Virus record (IMG/VR): IMGVR_UViG_3300037628_000326 | Location: 4,645-68,644 of that record | Reading direction: 5' to 3' (one strand) | DNA: 64,000 bases | DNA from: a virus | Shown: positions 47,406-51,867 of the stretch, piece by piece | Layout: every line of letters begins with the position of its first letter | How positions within the stretch are numbered: the first letter of the stretch is position 1 | Made by a program: the position numbers and the translations under genes | Notes under the pieces: generated by a model | What the model saw: only the letters and a program-made list of their open reading frames with translations | The model's database searches: none | What the model was told of the DNA's origin: nothing

Positions 47406-47762
47406 CTAAACACGGTCAGGGCTGCCCCCACCCCCGACCGATCTCCGTGCGCCCTCGCTCGAATAGAATTCATTGATGCCGGCCTGCTCGACGCTGTCGT
47501 AATTCAACGTCATCTCCAAGGTATCACCGAACGCCCGATTGAACACGTTGGCTGCCATGACCTCCCTAGTCTGCATCATCGACCTGGCCAGCGCCGCGGC
47601 CATGCGCTGTCCATCCATGCCTGGCGTGGCAAGCGCGTAGGTCTTGTGCGTGTACCCCATCGGTTGCCACTCGTTGGCTGACAGATAAGGATTCGCCGCG
47701 CCTGGCAAGGCAGCGCTCACCGCGGCAGCGACCGCGCCCTTGATGAATGTGCGCCTCTTCAC
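47406..47762 (-). CDS. Tat-signal protein built from major-capsid fragments (protein A)
   Basis: GTGA-coupled start, (M)KRRTFIK plus hydrophobic helix; YTHKTYALA, AAALARSMMQTREVMAANVFNRAF and LNYDSVEQAGINEF match segments of the MCP at 35273-36187. Confidence 0.75.
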   Translation of the reverse strand: MKRRTFIKGAVAAAVSAALPGAANPYLSANEWQPMGYTHKTYALATPGMDGQRMAAALARSMMQTREVMAANVFNRAFGDTLEMTLNYDSVEQAGINEFYSSEGARRSVGGGGSPDRV

Positions 47763-48010
47763 CAGCCGAACGCTATGTGCCCGGTGAACCAGGCCGCAAG
47801 TGCCCAGAACGATCCCCGTCTCGCTCGCATGCCCCAGCCCTGCGCTGTCTGGCGCTTGGAGAAGCCGAACATAAACCGCACGACCTCGCTCCAAGTGTCG
47901 CCCTTCTCTTTGTTGAACAGCGCTTTGAACTCGACTGCAAAGAACTGCGCGATGATCAGCACCCAGCCAATCTCTTGGGTACCCATTTGTTCCAAAATCC
48001 AATCCATCAT
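47759..48010 (-). CDS. Small membrane protein
   Basis: Two hydrophobic segments, GDTWSE.VR...W..GH motif. Confidence 0.6.
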   Translation of the reverse strand: MMDWILEQMGTQEIGWVLIIAQFFAVEFKALFNKEKGDTWSEVVRFMFGFSKRQTAQGWGMRARRGSFWALAAWFTGHIAFGW

Positions 48011-48267
48011 GTGATCTCCCCGTCGTCTTTTCGCCAGCGTAACATCTCGCTCAAATCCATAGCCACGAACGGCATCGCCTTGGCTACCTCTTCAGTCCGG
48101 GTGGTCATCAGCCAAATCGCAAACAGGAAGCCCAGGAAGCCGGCGCTCTGGTCGATGATGCCCTTGCCCTTGTGGCGCACGAACCGATAGCCGGCATAGA
48201 TGATAAACAGCCCGAGCGTGATGACCGGCGCCACCAGGAGCAGCGCCAGTGCATACAGCACGATCAC
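48007..48267 (-). CDS. Small membrane protein
   Basis: GTGA-coupled start VIVLYALALLLVAP; two TM segments. Confidence 0.55.
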   Translation of the reverse strand: MIVLYALALLLVAPVITLGLFIIYAGYRFVRHKGKGIIDQSAGFLGFLFAIWLMTTRTEEVAKAMPFVAMDLSEMLRWRKDDGEIT

Positions 48268-48581
48268 GGGCTGATCTCTACCGTCGGATTCTCGACTGCA
48301 GCCAGCGGCGTGTCGTCTGGGATGTTGAACGGCTCCTCGCTTGAGGCACCGCGGACATCGTCCATATCGATCGGCACATAGCGGCACAGGTAGTCACCGG
48401 GCGTTAGATCGGGAATCACGAGCTCCAGCGTATTCGCCGGCACCATCGGCTCGAGAACCGAGAACGGCCCACCTGCGACCGCCAGCGCGATCTCCGTACC
48501 CTGAACCTCCGCCGGATCCACCGGCAGGCCACTCTGCCGCTTAGTCGGCAGTCCCCATTTCGCTGTCGCTGTTCTCGCCAT
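48264..48581 (-). CDS. Fibronectin type III-like protein
   Basis: W.LPT.R.SG.P...L.I.DL.PG.Y...V..D...G..S; paralog-like to 48690-49247. Confidence 0.6.
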   Translation of the reverse strand: MARTATAKWGLPTKRQSGLPVDPAEVQGTEIALAVAGGPFSVLEPMVPANTLELVIPDLTPGDYLCRYVPIDMDDVRGASSEEPFNIPDDTPLAAVENPTVEISP

Positions 48582-48689
48582 CGCTCTCTCCAACCTCTAC
48601 AGATGCATTCTCAACTGGTCCCAGCGGATCCTTCCTGCAGAACAGGCCGAGCCGTCGGCACAGCCAGTCGCGAATCCACTCCCACATTC

Positions 48690-49247
48690 TTACGAACAAT
48701 CAGCAACCACCACGGGTGGCTGCACATTGCCAAACCATGCGACCAGGTCGCTCGGCACGCCGTAGTGGCCATTGACTGTCTGGTTCGGATCACACTGCGT
48801 ACCGGCCGGCACAGTGCCAACGGCCAGCAGGATGTACTTGTCTTTCTGCTTCACGACATCGAACGCCGTCAGGTTCTGCACCGTCAGCATTGTCGGCGGC
48901 ATCGGCACCAGCGGCGGTATGAGCTTGCTGACCTCGTTGCTGAAGTCGCTCTCCTGCACCGGATTGGCGCTATTGAATGCCGTCGTTACGAAGAAGTACG
49001 TCGTCCCCTCAGCGAGGCCTGGCACCACAAATGTCGTCGTCGTCGGATTGTTGATCGTGATGCTGACATCGCCATACGGTCCACCCTGCACAAGGCCGGC
49101 GTAAATCTTGAACCCGGCGAGATCAGTCAGCGCTGACCCGTCAGTGTTCTGCGTCGGTGCCGTCCAGGACAGCGTTGCGTCGCCGGCATGCGTAATTTGA
49201 GAGAACGCCAGTACTGCTAAAGCCGCTAAAATTGCTAATCGTTTCAT
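48690..49247 (-). CDS. Secreted fibronectin type III domain protein
   Basis: Signal peptide MKRLAILAALAVLAFSQITHA; ATLSWTAPTQNTDGSALTDLAGFKIY...GLAEGTTYFFVTTAFN...ESDFSNEVSK. Confidence 0.85.
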   Translation of the reverse strand: MKRLAILAALAVLAFSQITHAGDATLSWTAPTQNTDGSALTDLAGFKIYAGLVQGGPYGDVSITINNPTTTTFVVPGLAEGTTYFFVTTAFNSANPVQESDFSNEVSKLIPPLVPMPPTMLTVQNLTAFDVVKQKDKYILLAVGTVPAGTQCDPNQTVNGHYGVPSDLVAWFGNVQPPVVVADCS

Positions 49248-49450
49248 GATTCATCTCCAGTGCAAACGAGGGCGTACTCGTCCTGTGTCACTTCGCGGTA
49301 GCAGCGCTCGAAGACATCCTTCGGCGACCAAGAGAGGTAGCCATCCTCGTACACGACCTTGTAGCCTGCCGCCGGCTCTTCTTCTCCAGGTGGATTTGGA
49401 TCGTCCATTGGCTCTGCATGCACGATCTTCGTGCCGATGTAGGCCTTCAT
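49244..49450 (-). CDS. Small phage protein (YIGTK...GYKVVYEDGY.SWSPK..FE..Y domain)
   Basis: Conserved motif I recall as often fused to DUF2829/Tad2-like and Gp49-like anti-defence domains. Confidence 0.7.
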   Translation of the reverse strand: MKAYIGTKIVHAEPMDDPNPPGEEEPAAGYKVVYEDGYLSWSPKDVFERCYREVTQDEYALVCTGDES

Positions 49451-49665
49451 GTCGCTGCGTTCGGGATCGGTGCCCAGGCGATCACATCAGTCAACTCTGC
49501 CGTGCGGTCGGCGGAATCCCAAACCTCGCCGCGGGAGTCGATGCATTTACGTGATGCCGTCTCAACTAAGCGCCTGGGACCTCCAGTGTCTCTGGTCACC
49601 ATCACCGACACCCCGAAGCCTGGTAGGGCAGTTGTCACTCGAACCCACGTTAAATCGTCAGCCAT
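49447..49665 (-). CDS. DUF551-like protein
   Basis: W.RV...LP.....V.V...V.AW.PIP. Confidence 0.55.
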   Translation of the reverse strand: MADDLTWVRVTTALPGFGVSVMVTRDTGGPRRLVETASRKCIDSRGEVWDSADRTAELTDVIAWAPIPNAAT

Positions 49666-50524: not shown

Positions 50525-50673
50525 GTGTTCCGCCTTAGTACGCTTGAGACGATCGCATCAACGAACCAGGCCTTCAGCCGTTCCTGCTGCTCTTCGGTCA
50601 GTGGTTCATCGGTACACAGGTCATCGAGGATGATGACCTTCCGCCCGAAGGCCGGGCAGGCAGCCTCATGCAT
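50521..50673 (-). CDS. 50-aa protein resembling a terminase Walker-B segment
   Basis: GRKVIILDDL...QERLKAWF; ATG immediately after the upstream stop. Confidence 0.45.
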   Translation of the reverse strand: MHEAACPAFGRKVIILDDLCTDEPLTEEQQERLKAWFVDAIVSSVLRRNT

Positions 50674-50674
50674 C

Positions 50675-50869
50675 TCAGGCGCACTCGTCGAATTCTTGGA
50701 ATCCCTCGAGGTAGATGACCTGCTTGGCCGGCAGATCGCCGTTAAGCTTTTGGATAACGTGGATCTCGTCGTCTGGAATCTCTTCATCAATGACAATAGC
50801 GTACCCTCCGAGCAGCTTGCTCAGTTCACGTAGCTCAGCCCTTCGCTGATCATTGCCCCTGACTTCCAT
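50675..50869 (-). CDS. Hypothetical protein
   Basis: 64-aa ORF, LLGGYAIVIDEEIPDDEIHV. Confidence 0.5.
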   Translation of the reverse strand: MEVRGNDQRRAELRELSKLLGGYAIVIDEEIPDDEIHVIQKLNGDLPAKQVIYLEGFQEFDECA

Positions 50870-50888
50870 CGAACTCTCGTAGCGTCGT

Positions 50889-51086
50889 TCACGCTCTACG
50901 GCTCCTACTTCTGCCTACCGGTAACCCACCTGCGTCTATTTTACCCAAGTAATGACCGAGACAACAACCGAAGAAGAGTCCAATCATGTTTCCCCAGGTG
51001 ACCAGGTCGAAGAGATCAACGGCTATGCGGCCCAGTAGCAGGTAGATCAGGATGTAGTAGACAACGACAACCCGAAGCCAGTTCAC
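50889..51086 (-). CDS. Small membrane protein
   Basis: Two hydrophobic helices. Confidence 0.5.
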   Translation of the reverse strand: MNWLRVVVVYYILIYLLLGRIAVDLFDLVTWGNMIGLFFGCCLGHYLGKIDAGGLPVGRSRSRRA

Positions 51087-51508
51087 TGCACGATGTTCCC
51101 GTCTTTGGCCAGCGGGTTCTGGTCAGCGCAGCCCGTGCTGTGCAACTGTCCGTAGCTCGCACCGCAGCAACTGCAGGTCTTCGGCAGGCCGTCGCAGCCT
51201 ATGTTCACCGGGTGGTTGCCATCGCAGTCATAGCAATACGGTGCCTTCATGGGGCTGTTCTGGTGATGTTCTGGTACGTTGGGCCCGGCGAGTTGTGTTT
51301 CAGGCCACCCTGGTGGCCGCTTTTGAGGCAATTCTGCCCGATTTACGGTGATTGGGAGCGAATGATGCTGCCTGGCGAGTAGTCCGACCCAGTCCTCAGG
51401 GACCTCTACATCCTCCCCTTCGACGATCACAGCCACCTCGACGCCACGTGTATGCATGACGTCGATCTGCCCGTCGTCAACGTAGATCAGGACCTTGGGG
51501 GTAATCAT
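51083..51508 (-). CDS. Hypothetical protein with C-terminal Cys clusters
   Basis: CYDC..H...C / CSCCG...H..GC. Confidence 0.55.
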   Translation of the reverse strand: MITPKVLIYVDDGQIDVMHTRGVEVAVIVEGEDVEVPEDWVGLLARQHHSLPITVNRAELPQKRPPGWPETQLAGPNVPEHHQNSPMKAPYCYDCDGNHPVNIGCDGLPKTCSCCGASYGQLHSTGCADQNPLAKDGNIVQ

Positions 51509-51867
51509 CCGGGCTTTGGCCAGTCGTCAGGCTCGTAATCGGCGTACACCTCCTTGAATGCTTTATTGAGGCCATCGGCCATCTGCTGTGAGAACTCGGA
51601 CCTGGTCAGGATACCGCCGCGCTTCTTGACGTCTACGCACAACTGCTCGAGTGATGCCTCGGTCAGGTCGTACGGTATGGTCGCGCCTTCAGCTTTGAGC
51701 GGCGCCAGGCCGAAGCCTTCGGTCAGGTCATGGTGTGCGGCATCGTGCAGCAGGGCTGGATGTTTCATGCTGCCCAGCGCCACACCGTCATCAGGAATGA
51801 GCTTCTCGCTCACTACCGCAGCGGTGGCTACGCCGGCCAGGCGCTTCAGGAATCCTCGTCTCTTCAT
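51505..51867 (-). CDS. Tat-signal protein built from scrambled major-capsid fragments (protein B)
   Basis: MKRRGFLK plus hydrophobic helix; DGVALGSMKHP, GFGLAPLKAEGATIPYD, DLTEASLEQ and RSEFSQQMADGLNKAF..YADY.PDDW match four MCP segments. Confidence 0.8.
   Translation of the reverse strand: MKRRGFLKRLAGVATAAVVSEKLIPDDGVALGSMKHPALLHDAAHHDLTEGFGLAPLKAEGATIPYDLTEASLEQLCVDVKKRGGILTRSEFSQQMADGLNKAFKEVYADYEPDDWPKPG

What the first reader, a model, noticed from the sequence alone, without database searches (positions are those of the whole stretch)
47406..51867. Candidate new system: Tat-targeted 'capsid-fragment decoys' within a structural-protein-mimic island
Seen in the sequence: two separate ~120-aa genes, each a Tat signal plus MCP segments. 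Together they cover largely complementary parts of MCP residues 3-180 (A: 78-86, 103-130, 164-180; B: 138-148, 47-68, 164-177, 3-31). Established: several defences sense capsid proteins (CapRel-SJ46, Lit) or terminase/portal (Avs), and Tat exports folded complexes including signal-less partners. Inference: these proteins display capsid epitopes to bind capsid-sensing immune proteins and tether them at, or export them through, the membrane. Alternatively they capture or poison MCP subunits of competing related phages, since their sequences diverge from this phage's own MCP. Neighbouring terminase-like fragments and a candidate anti-defence domain fit an anti-defence island. I know of no description of such a system.
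Basis: partly seen in the sequence, partly recalled or inferred. Interest (0 to 1): 0.95.

Follow-up and report, generated by a model that had tools for sequence, protein, structure and literature searches.

The report
Tat-signal proteins built from capsid fragments
This marine phage carries two small genes that join an export (twin-arginine) signal to shuffled pieces of the phage's own major capsid protein, and they belong to a large, undescribed family of such genes in uncultured phages whose function is still unknown.

Summary
Gene A (47406-47762, -) and gene B (51505-51867, -) are the only ORFs in the 68.6-kb virus record with an RRxF[IL]K-type N-terminus. They are also the only ORFs besides the capsid gene (35273-36187) that match a capsid-family HMM. 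A's claimed 164-180 match and the "terminase-like fragment" are not significant.

The architecture recurs. A profile search found 243 cluster representatives. Of 258 short relatives gathered, 233 start with an RR motif. Curated Tat-signal models hit 60 and 52 of 134 members.

The modules (N-arm, E-loop, strand, spine helix, C-terminus) appear in many orders. The passengers are small and hydrophilic, and AlphaFold2 predicts no fold. The genes are accessory and lie in a conserved envelope-protein module upstream of TerL.

Function is untested. My best reading (about 0.3) is capsid-mimic peptides routed by Tat that act on a capsid-recognising partner. No description was found in print.

The parts
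47406..47762 (-). Gene A, 118 aa. Tat-type signal (about residues 1-22), then MCP strand module (residues 36-46, 47625-47657) and MCP spine-helix module (residues 49-82, 47517-47618). It ends with a C-terminal tail, SxEGARRSVGxxGSPDR[IV], seen only in copies that abut TerL.
   Evidence: Pfam TAT_signal 20.6 bits, E 4e-4, below the 22.7 cut-off.
51505..51867 (-). Gene B, 120 aa. Tat-type signal (about residues 1-22), then four MCP modules out of capsid order: 51757-51798 (MCP 138-148), 51667-51747 (E-loop, MCP 49-68), 51622-51669 (MCP 164-179), 51523-51618 (N-arm, MCP 3-27).
35273..36187 (-). Major capsid protein, 304 aa. This is the family from which the modules of A and B derive.
   Evidence: PHROG 371 E 1.8e-15. 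Pfam Phage_capsid_4 E 1.3e-13. 29-sequence family alignment A3.
47759..48010 (-). 83-aa small protein (phrog_3555, unknown function) with hydrophobic stretches. Its stop overlaps A's start, suggesting translational coupling.
48007..48387 (-). ORF of up to 126 aa with two hydrophobic stretches (predicted membrane protein). It is conserved in part of the related loci, and its true start is uncertain.
48264..48593 (-). 109-aa protein with no family match. A homologue lies just upstream of the RR gene(s) in 9 of 10 related loci.
48690..49247 (-). 185-aa protein with a hydrophobic Sec-like N-terminus and a fibronectin type III domain. It is the conserved first gene of the module (9 of 10 related loci).
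   Evidence: Pfam fn3 25.9 bits, cut-off 25. Synteny. No match in GenBank phages.
51083..51508 (-). 141-aa Cys-rich protein. Its ATG overlaps B's stop (ATGA). It is conserved next to B in L081.
45799..47403 (-). Large terminase. It starts 2 nt after A's stop.
   Evidence: phrog_38 E 1.1e-66. 90% identical in L001 and L081.

Best explanation
SHOWN: A and B belong to one large, mosaic family of small phage accessory proteins (median 99 aa). Each has an N-terminal twin-arginine (Tat-type) signal followed by a hydrophilic passenger with no predicted fold. The passenger is a string of short modules copied from the most conserved parts of the HK97-type major capsid protein: N-arm, E-loop, the following strand, spine helix, the strand after it, an A-domain helix and, in relatives, the C-terminus. 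The modules occur in different numbers and orders. They therefore most likely work as separate linear peptides rather than as a capsid-like fold.

INFERRED: the proteins are made with the late genes. They stay in the cytoplasm long enough to bind, as post-translational Tat substrates do. They present capsid motifs to a partner that normally recognises the capsid protein. The Tat signal then takes them, and possibly what they hold, to the TatBC complex or across the membrane. Small unfolded hydrophilic proteins of this size are the kind Tat tolerates.

I take the most likely partner to be a host factor that senses capsid protein, so that this is a late-acting counter-defence decoy. The accessory distribution, the several differently composed copies per genome and the use of Tat rather than Sec fit this reading better than a core assembly role.
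For: Descriptive part:
- Capsid derivation: E 2.6e-9; E 2.4e-16.
- Family size: 50 relatives of B and 76 of A, and 243 representatives at E<=1e-3 among 1.84 billion proteins. P0051 matches both A and B.
- Tat signal: R3, R4 and F6 are invariant in both alignments. 233 of 258 short relatives carry RRx[FLIVM][ILVMF] in the first ~17 residues. Pfam TAT_signal hits 60 of 134 and TIGR01409 hits 52 of 134 members at E<=0.01. The signal sequences themselves vary widely while keeping the pattern.
- Module shuffling: T-Y-H 49, T-H 39, T-E-a5-N 21, plus T-E-H-Y, T-H-Y and others. MCP C-terminal piece in L084 (E 4.6e-6).
- No fold: pLDDT 55.3 and 52.3, pTM 0.23 and 0.20.
- Size and hydrophilicity: 96% are <=130 aa, passenger GRAVY is -0.37, and 1% have an 11-residue hydropathy window above 1.6. 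A Tat review states that small unfolded substrates without exposed hydrophobic stretches are transported (PMC13673990, passages read).
- Purifying selection: dN/dS 0.28 for A and 0.44 for B against 0.13 for TerL, one pair only.

Functional inference:
- The genes are accessory. 10 other viral records with the same capsid family, 4 of them >=90% complete, have no small gene matching the A profile.
- Related loci carry 2-3 RR genes each.
- The genes share strand and operon with the packaging genes.
- B's N-arm, S1, a5 and A's strand modules rank 1st to 6th of 103 capsid proteins for likeness to the own MCP.
Against: - No experiment or computation here shows export, cleavage or binding to anything.
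- A's own TAT_signal score is below Pfam's cut-off, and B has no Pfam hit.
- B's signal region is unusually conserved for a signal peptide. That could point to another role.
- A decoy that leaves the cytoplasm is an odd design unless it removes its target.
- B's E-loop module resembles the own MCP less than most other capsid proteins do (rank 89 of 103), and the spine module is average (47 of 103). Mimicry of self is therefore not uniform.
- No known defence or anti-defence family matches: PADLOC gave 0 hits for A and B. No anti-defence library was on hand.
- The host is unknown, so a Tat system in it is assumed.
- The ascertainment is biased. The loci that hold RR genes were found by searching for them.
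Confidence: 0.3

Rival explanations
1. Assembly interference or regulation. The capsid pieces (E-loop, N-arm, spine helix) bind capsid subunits, scaffold or assembly intermediates. These could belong to co-infecting related phages (dominant-negative exclusion) or to the phage itself (holding back or placing assembly at the membrane). The Tat signal tethers or removes the complex.
For: - The modules kept are the most conserved capsid motifs, and the same residues (L, S, T of the spine motif) are the most conserved in both families. That fits a shared binding partner within the capsid system.
- The E-loop and N-arm are inter-subunit elements of HK97-type capsids (recalled knowledge).
- The small proteins keep the family-consensus E-loop, while the window's own MCP differs there. 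This would spare the phage's own assembly.
Against: - The genes are absent from 10 of 10 other records with this capsid family, so they are not a core assembly factor.
- The commonest module, the spine helix, is largely buried in the fold rather than at an interface (recalled).
- Several modules are closest to the phage's own MCP, which would poison the phage itself.
- A Tat signal has no obvious use for a cytoplasmic inhibitor.
Confidence: 0.2
2. Envelope or Tat-directed function in which the capsid origin is historical. The proteins are exported to act in the periplasm, or they clog the Tat translocon to disturb the membrane and help time lysis, together with the neighbouring secreted fn3 protein and small membrane proteins. 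Capsid fragments were simply handy unfolded raw material.
For: - In 9 of 10 related loci the RR genes lie just after a conserved secreted fn3 protein and its 109-aa neighbour; small hydrophobic proteins also lie there in part of the loci.
- The Tat review notes that unfolded substrates with exposed hydrophobic regions abort transport late and cause growth defects (PMC13673990, passages).
- Some relatives carry RR signals on passengers with no significant capsid likeness: L086 11825-12166, and the ~200-aa proteins of L082, L086 and L088 (E 0.2-0.9).
Against: - It does not explain why capsid-specific motif residues stay conserved in more than 200 diverged clusters.
- It does not explain why different capsid regions were recruited repeatedly.
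- Only 1% of passengers have a hydrophobic stretch, which argues against clogging.
- No lysis gene was recognised in the module.
Confidence: 0.12
3. Secreted signal. After export and cleavage the peptides are released and sensed by neighbouring cells or lysogens, as a capsid-type-specific communication or kin signal.
For: The proteins are small, have an export signal and an unfolded passenger. The module set varies between phages.
Against: - No receptor or regulator gene is associated with them.
- The passengers are far longer than known phage communication peptides (recalled).
- Nothing explains the capsid mimicry.
- Crossing the outer membrane is not provided for.
Confidence: 0.05
4. Gene A is a packaging accessory, a substitute for the small terminase, because it occupies the slot immediately upstream of TerL.
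For: - A ends 2 nt before TerL.
- No homologue of the CRP-901 small terminase or of the pre-TerL gene of related loci is found in the record.
- The C-terminal tail of A occurs only in the 3 copies that abut TerL (window, L001, L081) and not in the RR genes of the other 7 loci.
Against: - No DNA-binding or oligomerisation domain and no PHROG or Pfam terminase match.
- In 7 of 10 loci the RR genes lie 3-5 kb from TerL, with another gene in the slot.
- A hydrophobic Tat-type N-terminus is not a small-terminase feature.
Confidence: 0.05
5. Decayed remnants of capsid gene duplications, or gene-calling artefacts, with no function.
For: The pieces are short. One claimed segment and A's C-terminal 'echo' are at chance level.
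Against: - Open frames are conserved in 243 representative clusters.
- dN/dS is below 1.
- The starts are coupled to neighbouring genes.
- The Tat pattern is conserved.
- Synteny is conserved.
Confidence: 0.02

Closest known systems
Tat 'hitchhiker' export, e.g. E. coli PaoABC (abstract seen in the listing, PMC4273604); hydrogenase small/large subunits (recalled)
   Same: A twin-arginine signal on one small chain. The pathway can carry a bound partner that has no signal, which is the step the decoy-and-export reading needs.
   Different: Known cases are cofactor enzymes of the cell with folded subunits. Here the carrier is a phage protein with no predicted fold and no partner has been shown.
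Small, unstructured, hydrophilic Tat substrates (Richter et al. 2007, as cited in review PMC13673990; passages read)
   Same: Size (median 99 aa) and lack of hydrophobic stretches in the passenger match what Tat is reported to tolerate without folding.
   Different: Those substrates were engineered test proteins. This is a natural family with conserved capsid-derived motifs.
Capsid protein as an immune trigger: CapRel SJ46 sensing a phage major capsid protein (PMC9712102, abstract start seen); Lit protease and the Gol peptide of T4 gp23 (recalled)
   Same: They show that hosts read capsid protein, even a short capsid peptide, as a sign of late infection. That gives capsid mimics a conceivable target.
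   Different: No phage-encoded capsid fragment acting as an inhibitor is described in what I searched. Here no sensor is known, and the host is unknown.
Capsid-derived restriction factors of animals (Fv1, enJS56A1; recalled, not searched by sequence)
   Same: Truncated or diverged capsid genes are kept under selection and act through likeness to capsid protein.
   Different: Those are host genes against viruses, are folded, and carry no export signal. These are viral genes with scrambled short modules.
Satellite capsid-redirecting proteins (P4 Sid, SaPI CpmB; recalled)
   Same: Small accessory proteins that act on another element's capsid assembly.
   Different: They are not derived from capsid protein and have no signal peptide.

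Membership tests
Twin-arginine (Tat) signal peptide (Pfam PF10518, NCBIfam TIGR01409) | Consensus motif around two arginines (S/T-R-R-x-F-L-K) near the N-terminus | tested here: met
   A and B both carry KRRxF[IL]K at residues 2-8. R3, R4 and F6 are invariant in 20 of 20 and 27 of 27 aligned relatives. 233 of 258 short relatives have the RR motif.
Twin-arginine (Tat) signal peptide (Pfam PF10518, NCBIfam TIGR01409) | Score at or above the curated model cut-off | tested here: inconclusive
   A scores 20.6 bits against a cut-off of 22.7. B has no hit at E<=0.1. In the family, 60 of 134 (Pfam) and 52 of 134 (TIGR01409) match at E<=0.01. The number above the cut-offs was not reported.
Twin-arginine (Tat) signal peptide (Pfam PF10518, NCBIfam TIGR01409) | Moderately hydrophobic h-region followed by a polar c-region with a signal-peptidase site | tested here: inconclusive
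   The best 12-residue hydropathy after the motif has median 1.82. Many members end the h-region with Pro and some show A-x-A. No cleavage-site predictor was available.
Twin-arginine (Tat) signal peptide (Pfam PF10518, NCBIfam TIGR01409) | Export that depends on TatABC and on the two arginines | not testable with these tools
   Needs reporter fusions in wild type and in a tat mutant. The host is unknown.
HK97-fold major capsid protein (Pfam Phage_capsid_4, PF25209) | Full-length collinear match to the family and a complete HK97 fold | tested here: not met
   Only short segments match, and in B they are out of order. No Pfam capsid hit for A or B. AlphaFold2 gives pLDDT 52-55 and no fold. These proteins are derived from the family, not members of it.
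Small terminase (TerS) | Gene directly upstream of TerL | tested here: met
   A ends 2 nt before TerL. This holds in only 3 of 10 loci with RR genes.
Small terminase (TerS) | Recognisable terminase small-subunit domain (DNA-binding N-terminus, oligomerisation core) | tested here: not met
   No Pfam, PHROG or NCBIfam match. No likeness to the CRP-901 TerS.
Known defence or anti-defence proteins | Match to a curated model of a defence system component | tested here: not met
   PADLOC gave 0 families for A and B. No anti-defence library was on hand, so membership in a known anti-defence family was not tested.

The most novel reading that the evidence does not exclude
Phages of this lineage carry a small library of their own capsid 'epitopes' on Tat signals. 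The peptides capture host proteins that recognise capsid protein late in infection and drag them to, or through, the Tat translocon. The sensor is thereby removed from the cytoplasm instead of being inhibited there. This would be a new principle of counter-defence (export of the sensor by hitchhiking). It would also be the first case of a virus using scrambled pieces of its own capsid as decoys.
Probability: 0.2. Interest if true: 0.95.

Novelty: categorically new. Interest (0 to 1): 0.8.

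Why it matters
Capsid proteins are a main cue by which bacteria detect late infection. How phages cope with this, other than by mutating the capsid, is largely open. This is a widespread gene family that fuses an export signal to the most constrained capsid motifs, which are the parts a phage cannot easily mutate. 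That gives a concrete, testable candidate for capsid mimicry.

Whatever the function, the family shows three unusual things:
- phages repeatedly recruiting short pieces of a structural gene into new small genes;
- modular shuffling of linear peptide motifs;
- phage use of the Tat pathway for unfolded passengers.

It also gives a simple search rule (TAT_signal plus partial, non-collinear hits to a structural-protein HMM in ORFs under 150 aa). That rule can be applied to other capsid families and to portal or tail proteins.

Tried and rejected
- Complex prediction of the MCP (alignment A3) with B residues 22-120 (alignment A1) gave no verdict: ipSAE 0.01 and 0.00, controls not run. This is not evidence either way.
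- Sequencing runs: no RNA holder is listed for 47300-52000. Four marine-sediment DNA runs hold it and may be the source. Read laying was not used, so nothing can be said on expression.
I could not read the long contigs that hold many A and B relatives. I therefore could not run the planned test of co-variation between modules and the resident capsid gene. Only 4 records held both.
- A further IMG/VR scan with the L086 protein added only one new short contig.
- The genome-contig scan gave 16 MAG contigs, nearly all capsid genes, of many phyla. That suggests binning noise, so no host can be named.
- GenBank phages: no match for B or the fn3 protein, and only capsid genes for A.
- The search for longer, fused forms of B found none, which is weak evidence.
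- PDB by sequence: no solved relative of this capsid family. The placement of modules on the HK97 fold therefore rests on recalled topology and on the helices in the two low-confidence models.
- ESM Atlas returned only viral hypothetical clusters and Tat-substrate look-alikes at 0.81-0.89, which are leads only.
- Rfam gave no match in the window.
- I considered that A's conserved tail reflects a DNA or RNA element. It is almost identical at DNA level between the window and L081, and a loosely similar stretch ends other small ORFs in L082-L087. This was not resolved.
- Silent donor cassettes for capsid gene conversion: rejected, because identity to the capsid gene is only about 35-50% at protein level.
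- Lysis-cassette reading of the module: no endolysin, holin or spanin family was recognised.
- Supplementary files of papers were not consulted (closed). None bears on a claim made here.

Full report
WHAT THE WINDOW IS. The window is bases 4645-68644 of a 68,644-base virus record. Nearly all long ORFs lie on the minus strand. Recognised genes:
- a portal at 40091-42667 (phrog_1216);
- a major capsid protein (MCP) at 35273-36187 (phrog_371 E 1.8e-15; Pfam Phage_capsid_4 52.3 bits, cut-off 27);
- a large terminase at 45799-47403 (phrog_38 E 1.1e-66).

The closest cultured relative by TerL is Roseobacter phage CRP-901, at only 40.7% identity. Four marine-sediment DNA runs hold the region.

THE OBSERVATION. 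Gene A is 47406-47762 (-). Its GTG start overlaps the stop of the upstream 83-aa gene (GGTGA), and its stop lies 2 nt before TerL. Gene B is 51505-51867 (-). It has GAGG 8 nt before its ATG, and its stop overlaps the ATG of the next gene. Both begin with KRRxF[IL]K followed by an Ala/Gly/Val-rich stretch.

BLASTP against the phage's own MCP gives:
- A 38-83 to MCP 78-134, 24/57 identical, E 8e-10;
- B 27-82 to MCP 138-179, E 5e-5, and B 48-67 to MCP 49-68, E 0.002.

Each was aligned to the whole MCP against 5000 shuffles.
- B 24-37 lands on MCP 138-148 (8 shuffles reach the score).
- B 41-67 lands on 49-68 (0 shuffles).
- B 67-82 lands on 164-179 (0).
- B 84-115 lands on 3-27 (0).
- A 36-46 lands on 78-86 (1).
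- A 49-82 lands on 103-133 (0).

The order in B (138, 49, 164, 3) is truly non-collinear. Two claims fail: A 83-100 against MCP 165-176 (609 of 5000), and A's tail against the MCP end (1119 of 5000).

An HMM of 29 capsid proteins was run on all 1077 six-frame ORFs of the window. It hits only the MCP, A's ORF (E 6e-9) and B's ORF (E 1e-8). A scan of all six frames of the whole record for an RR motif plus a hydrophobic stretch near a start codon finds only A and B. That pattern alone is not rare, since shuffled genomes give a mean of 0.85 and two or more in 24 of 100. What is not chance is that the two capsid-like small ORFs and the two RR ORFs are the same two genes.

The neighbouring 'terminase-like fragment' is not supported (BLASTP E 0.25-0.42). 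An all-against-all BLAST of window ORFs shows no other structural-protein mimic.

RECURRENCE. B has 50 relatives at E<=0.01 among 64 candidates, and A has 76 among 145. One protein, P0051, matches both, so A and B belong to one mosaic family. A profile of the A alignment, read against 1.84 billion cluster representatives, finds 243 at E<=1e-3 and 61 at E<=1e-10. Nearly all of the 150 listed are 42-157 aa and match from residue 1.

Some of the rest are short gene calls. The collection's own call for A is the 84-aa form from an inner ATG (P0052).

Pfam TAT_signal matches 60 of 134 representatives and TIGR01409 matches 52 of 134 at E<=0.01. A itself scores 20.6 bits, below Pfam's 22.7 cut-off, and B has no hit. 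The signals differ widely in sequence while keeping the twin arginines, a weakly hydrophobic stretch and often a Pro or A-x-A at the end. This is how real signal peptides behave.

No GenBank phage has such a gene. B has no match and A matches only capsid genes.

ANATOMY OF THE FAMILY. Profile-profile comparison ties the A family to capsid positions 78-135 (E 2.4e-16). It ties the B family to the E-loop (E 2.6e-9). The capsid HMM splits B-family members into up to four domains, at model positions 134-152, 51-75, 163-180 and 2-30, consistently across members.

With simple motif patterns the architectures are (T = signal, Y = strand 78-86, H = spine helix, E = E-loop, a5 = helix 164-179, N = N-arm, C = A's tail):
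- T-Y-H: 49
- T-H: 39
- T-E-a5-N: 21
- T-Y-H-C: 16
- smaller numbers of T-E-H-Y, T-H-Y, T-E-Y-H-C and others
- 50 members carry the signal but none of my motifs.

More distant members and related loci carry other capsid pieces. L084 9787-10014 has the C-terminal piece (HMM 270-301, E 4.6e-6). L096 has an E-loop piece (E 8.2e-6) and a weak 188-214 piece (E 0.06). P0202, P0166, P0163, P0229 and P0226 show C-terminal or N-arm motifs by eye.

Some RR proteins have passengers with no significant capsid likeness. These are L086 11825-12166 and the ~200-aa proteins of L082, L086 and L088 (E 0.2-0.9).

AlphaFold2 with the family alignments predicts no fold. B has pLDDT 55.3 and pTM 0.23. A has pLDDT 52.3 and pTM 0.20. 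Only the signal helix and the spine or N-arm helices appear.

The 233 RR proteins have a median length of 99 aa (IQR 86-113; 96% are <=130). Passenger GRAVY is -0.37, and only 1% have an 11-residue hydropathy window above 1.6. Shuffled order plus no fold means the modules most likely act as separate linear peptides.

CONTEXT. Ten of the 119 IMG/VR loci fetched with the two family alignments hold small RR genes with capsid motifs. The other loci hold ~300-aa capsid genes, some cut by a contig end. L084/L085 and L087/L088 are near-duplicates.

In 9 of those 10 loci the RR gene or genes lie just after homologues of the window's secreted fn3 protein (48690-49247) and the 109-aa protein (48264-48593). 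They lie upstream of TerL and portal. In the window, L001 and L081, gene A abuts TerL and carries the tail SxEGARRSVGxxGSPDR[IV]. In the others the RR genes lie 3-5 kb from TerL, lack the tail, and another gene fills the pre-TerL slot. Related loci have two or three RR genes each.

The genes are accessory. In 10 other viral records with the same capsid family, 4 of them rated >=90% complete, the A profile hits only the capsid gene. One pairwise estimate (window against L081) gives dN/dS of 0.28 for A, 0.44 for B and 0.13 for TerL.

RELATION TO THE PHAGE'S OWN CAPSID. I scored each module against 103 capsid proteins (see the telling of that script). Ranks for likeness to the own MCP were:
- B's N-arm module: 1st (score 66, median 40);
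- B's S1 and a5 modules and A's strand module: 5th-6th;
- A's spine module: 47th;
- B's E-loop module: 89th.

The window's MCP, and the 84-85% identical MCPs of G001 and G004, depart from the family-consensus E-loop motif, which the small proteins keep. Only four records held both genes, so this is a hint and not a test.

HOW IT MOST LIKELY WORKS.

Shown: small late-operon accessory proteins with a Tat-type signal and an unfolded hydrophilic string of capsid motifs.

From the literature: a 2026 review states that Tat tolerates small unfolded substrates if they expose no hydrophobic stretch, while exposed hydrophobic regions abort transport late and harm growth (PMC13673990, passages read). Tat can also co-export bound partners that have no signal (PMC4273604, abstract start in the listing). 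Capsid protein directly activates at least one bacterial immune protein (PMC9712102, abstract start in the listing).

Inferred: the same residues stay conserved in the capsid family and in the small proteins, namely L, S and T of the spine motif. This argues that the peptides meet a partner that also meets the capsid protein. Several features fit a counter-defence decoy that removes a capsid sensor. These are the use of Tat (post-translational, allowing binding in the cytoplasm) next to a neighbour with a Sec-like signal, the accessory distribution, several differently composed copies per genome, and co-expression with late genes.

The rivals are:
- interference with capsid assembly of competitors or of the phage itself, about 0.2;
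- an envelope or Tat-directed role with capsid origin as historical accident, about 0.12;
- a secreted signal, about 0.05;
- a packaging role for A, about 0.05;
- junk, about 0.02.

The remainder is 'something else'. None of these has been tested. The one complex prediction gave no verdict.

COMPARISON AND NOVELTY. A and B are not capsid proteins (fragments only, no fold). They are not recognisable small terminases and match no PADLOC family. They carry a Tat-type signal by motif, but A is under the curated cut-off and export is untested.

Six full-text searches found no description of phage proteins that join a Tat signal to capsid fragments, or of capsid-fragment decoys in phages. The library lacks most subscription journals, so this is absence in what was searched. 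The earlier notes of this scan on the same window describe A and B as I found them.

VERDICT. A real, recurrent and so far undescribed architecture. The 'island of structural mimics' is not. The function is open. Interest 0.8.

Noticed in passing
window 49715-50524 (-): A 269-aa PAPS-reductase-like protein (phrog_424, E 3.7e-41) matches the PADLOC model SspD (E 4.7e-23). SspD is a component of DNA phosphorothioation systems. A phage copy could modify DNA or counter such a system.
   Followed up: partly
window 47406-47470 (-); L081 5700-5771; L083 2985-3039: A's C-terminal tail is almost identical at DNA level between the window and L081, although the rest of A is only ~57-76% identical in protein. 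A loosely similar G-rich stretch ends unrelated small ORFs (…GGEDSGVAPRSTDGS) in L082-L087. This could be a DNA or RNA element or a recombination joint. Rfam has no match.
   Followed up: partly
L086 11825-12166; L082 1889-2494; L086 7684-8268; L088 7866-8480: Related phages carry further RR-signal ORFs (113 aa and ~200 aa) whose passengers show no significant capsid likeness (E 0.2-0.9). These phages seem to send several different proteins to Tat.
   Followed up: partly
window 33683-34375 and 34401-35165 (-): Two adjacent genes just downstream of the MCP are paralogues (35% identity over 118 aa, E 2e-9). Neither has a family match.
   Followed up: no
window 5405-18733 (-): A single 4442-aa ORF, presumably a giant virion or ejected protein. 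It was not analysed here.
   Followed up: no
window 42687-43214 (-): Phage-encoded peptide deformylase (Pfam Pep_deformylase 112 bits), lying beside the portal gene.
   Followed up: no
window 45387-45863 (-): A 158-aa ORF that overlaps the end of TerL by 65 nt. It has a weak match to the plasmid fertility-inhibition factor family PFIN (19.1 bits, below cut-off) and is conserved in L081, L086, L087 and L088.
   Followed up: no
window 35273-36187 vs G001, G004: The MCP is 84-85% identical to that of two records whose TerL is only ~58% identical. This points to module exchange between head and packaging genes in this phage group.
   Followed up: no
whole record G000: No small terminase could be recognised. 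There is no homologue of the CRP-901 TerS or of the gene that precedes TerL in related loci.
   Followed up: partly
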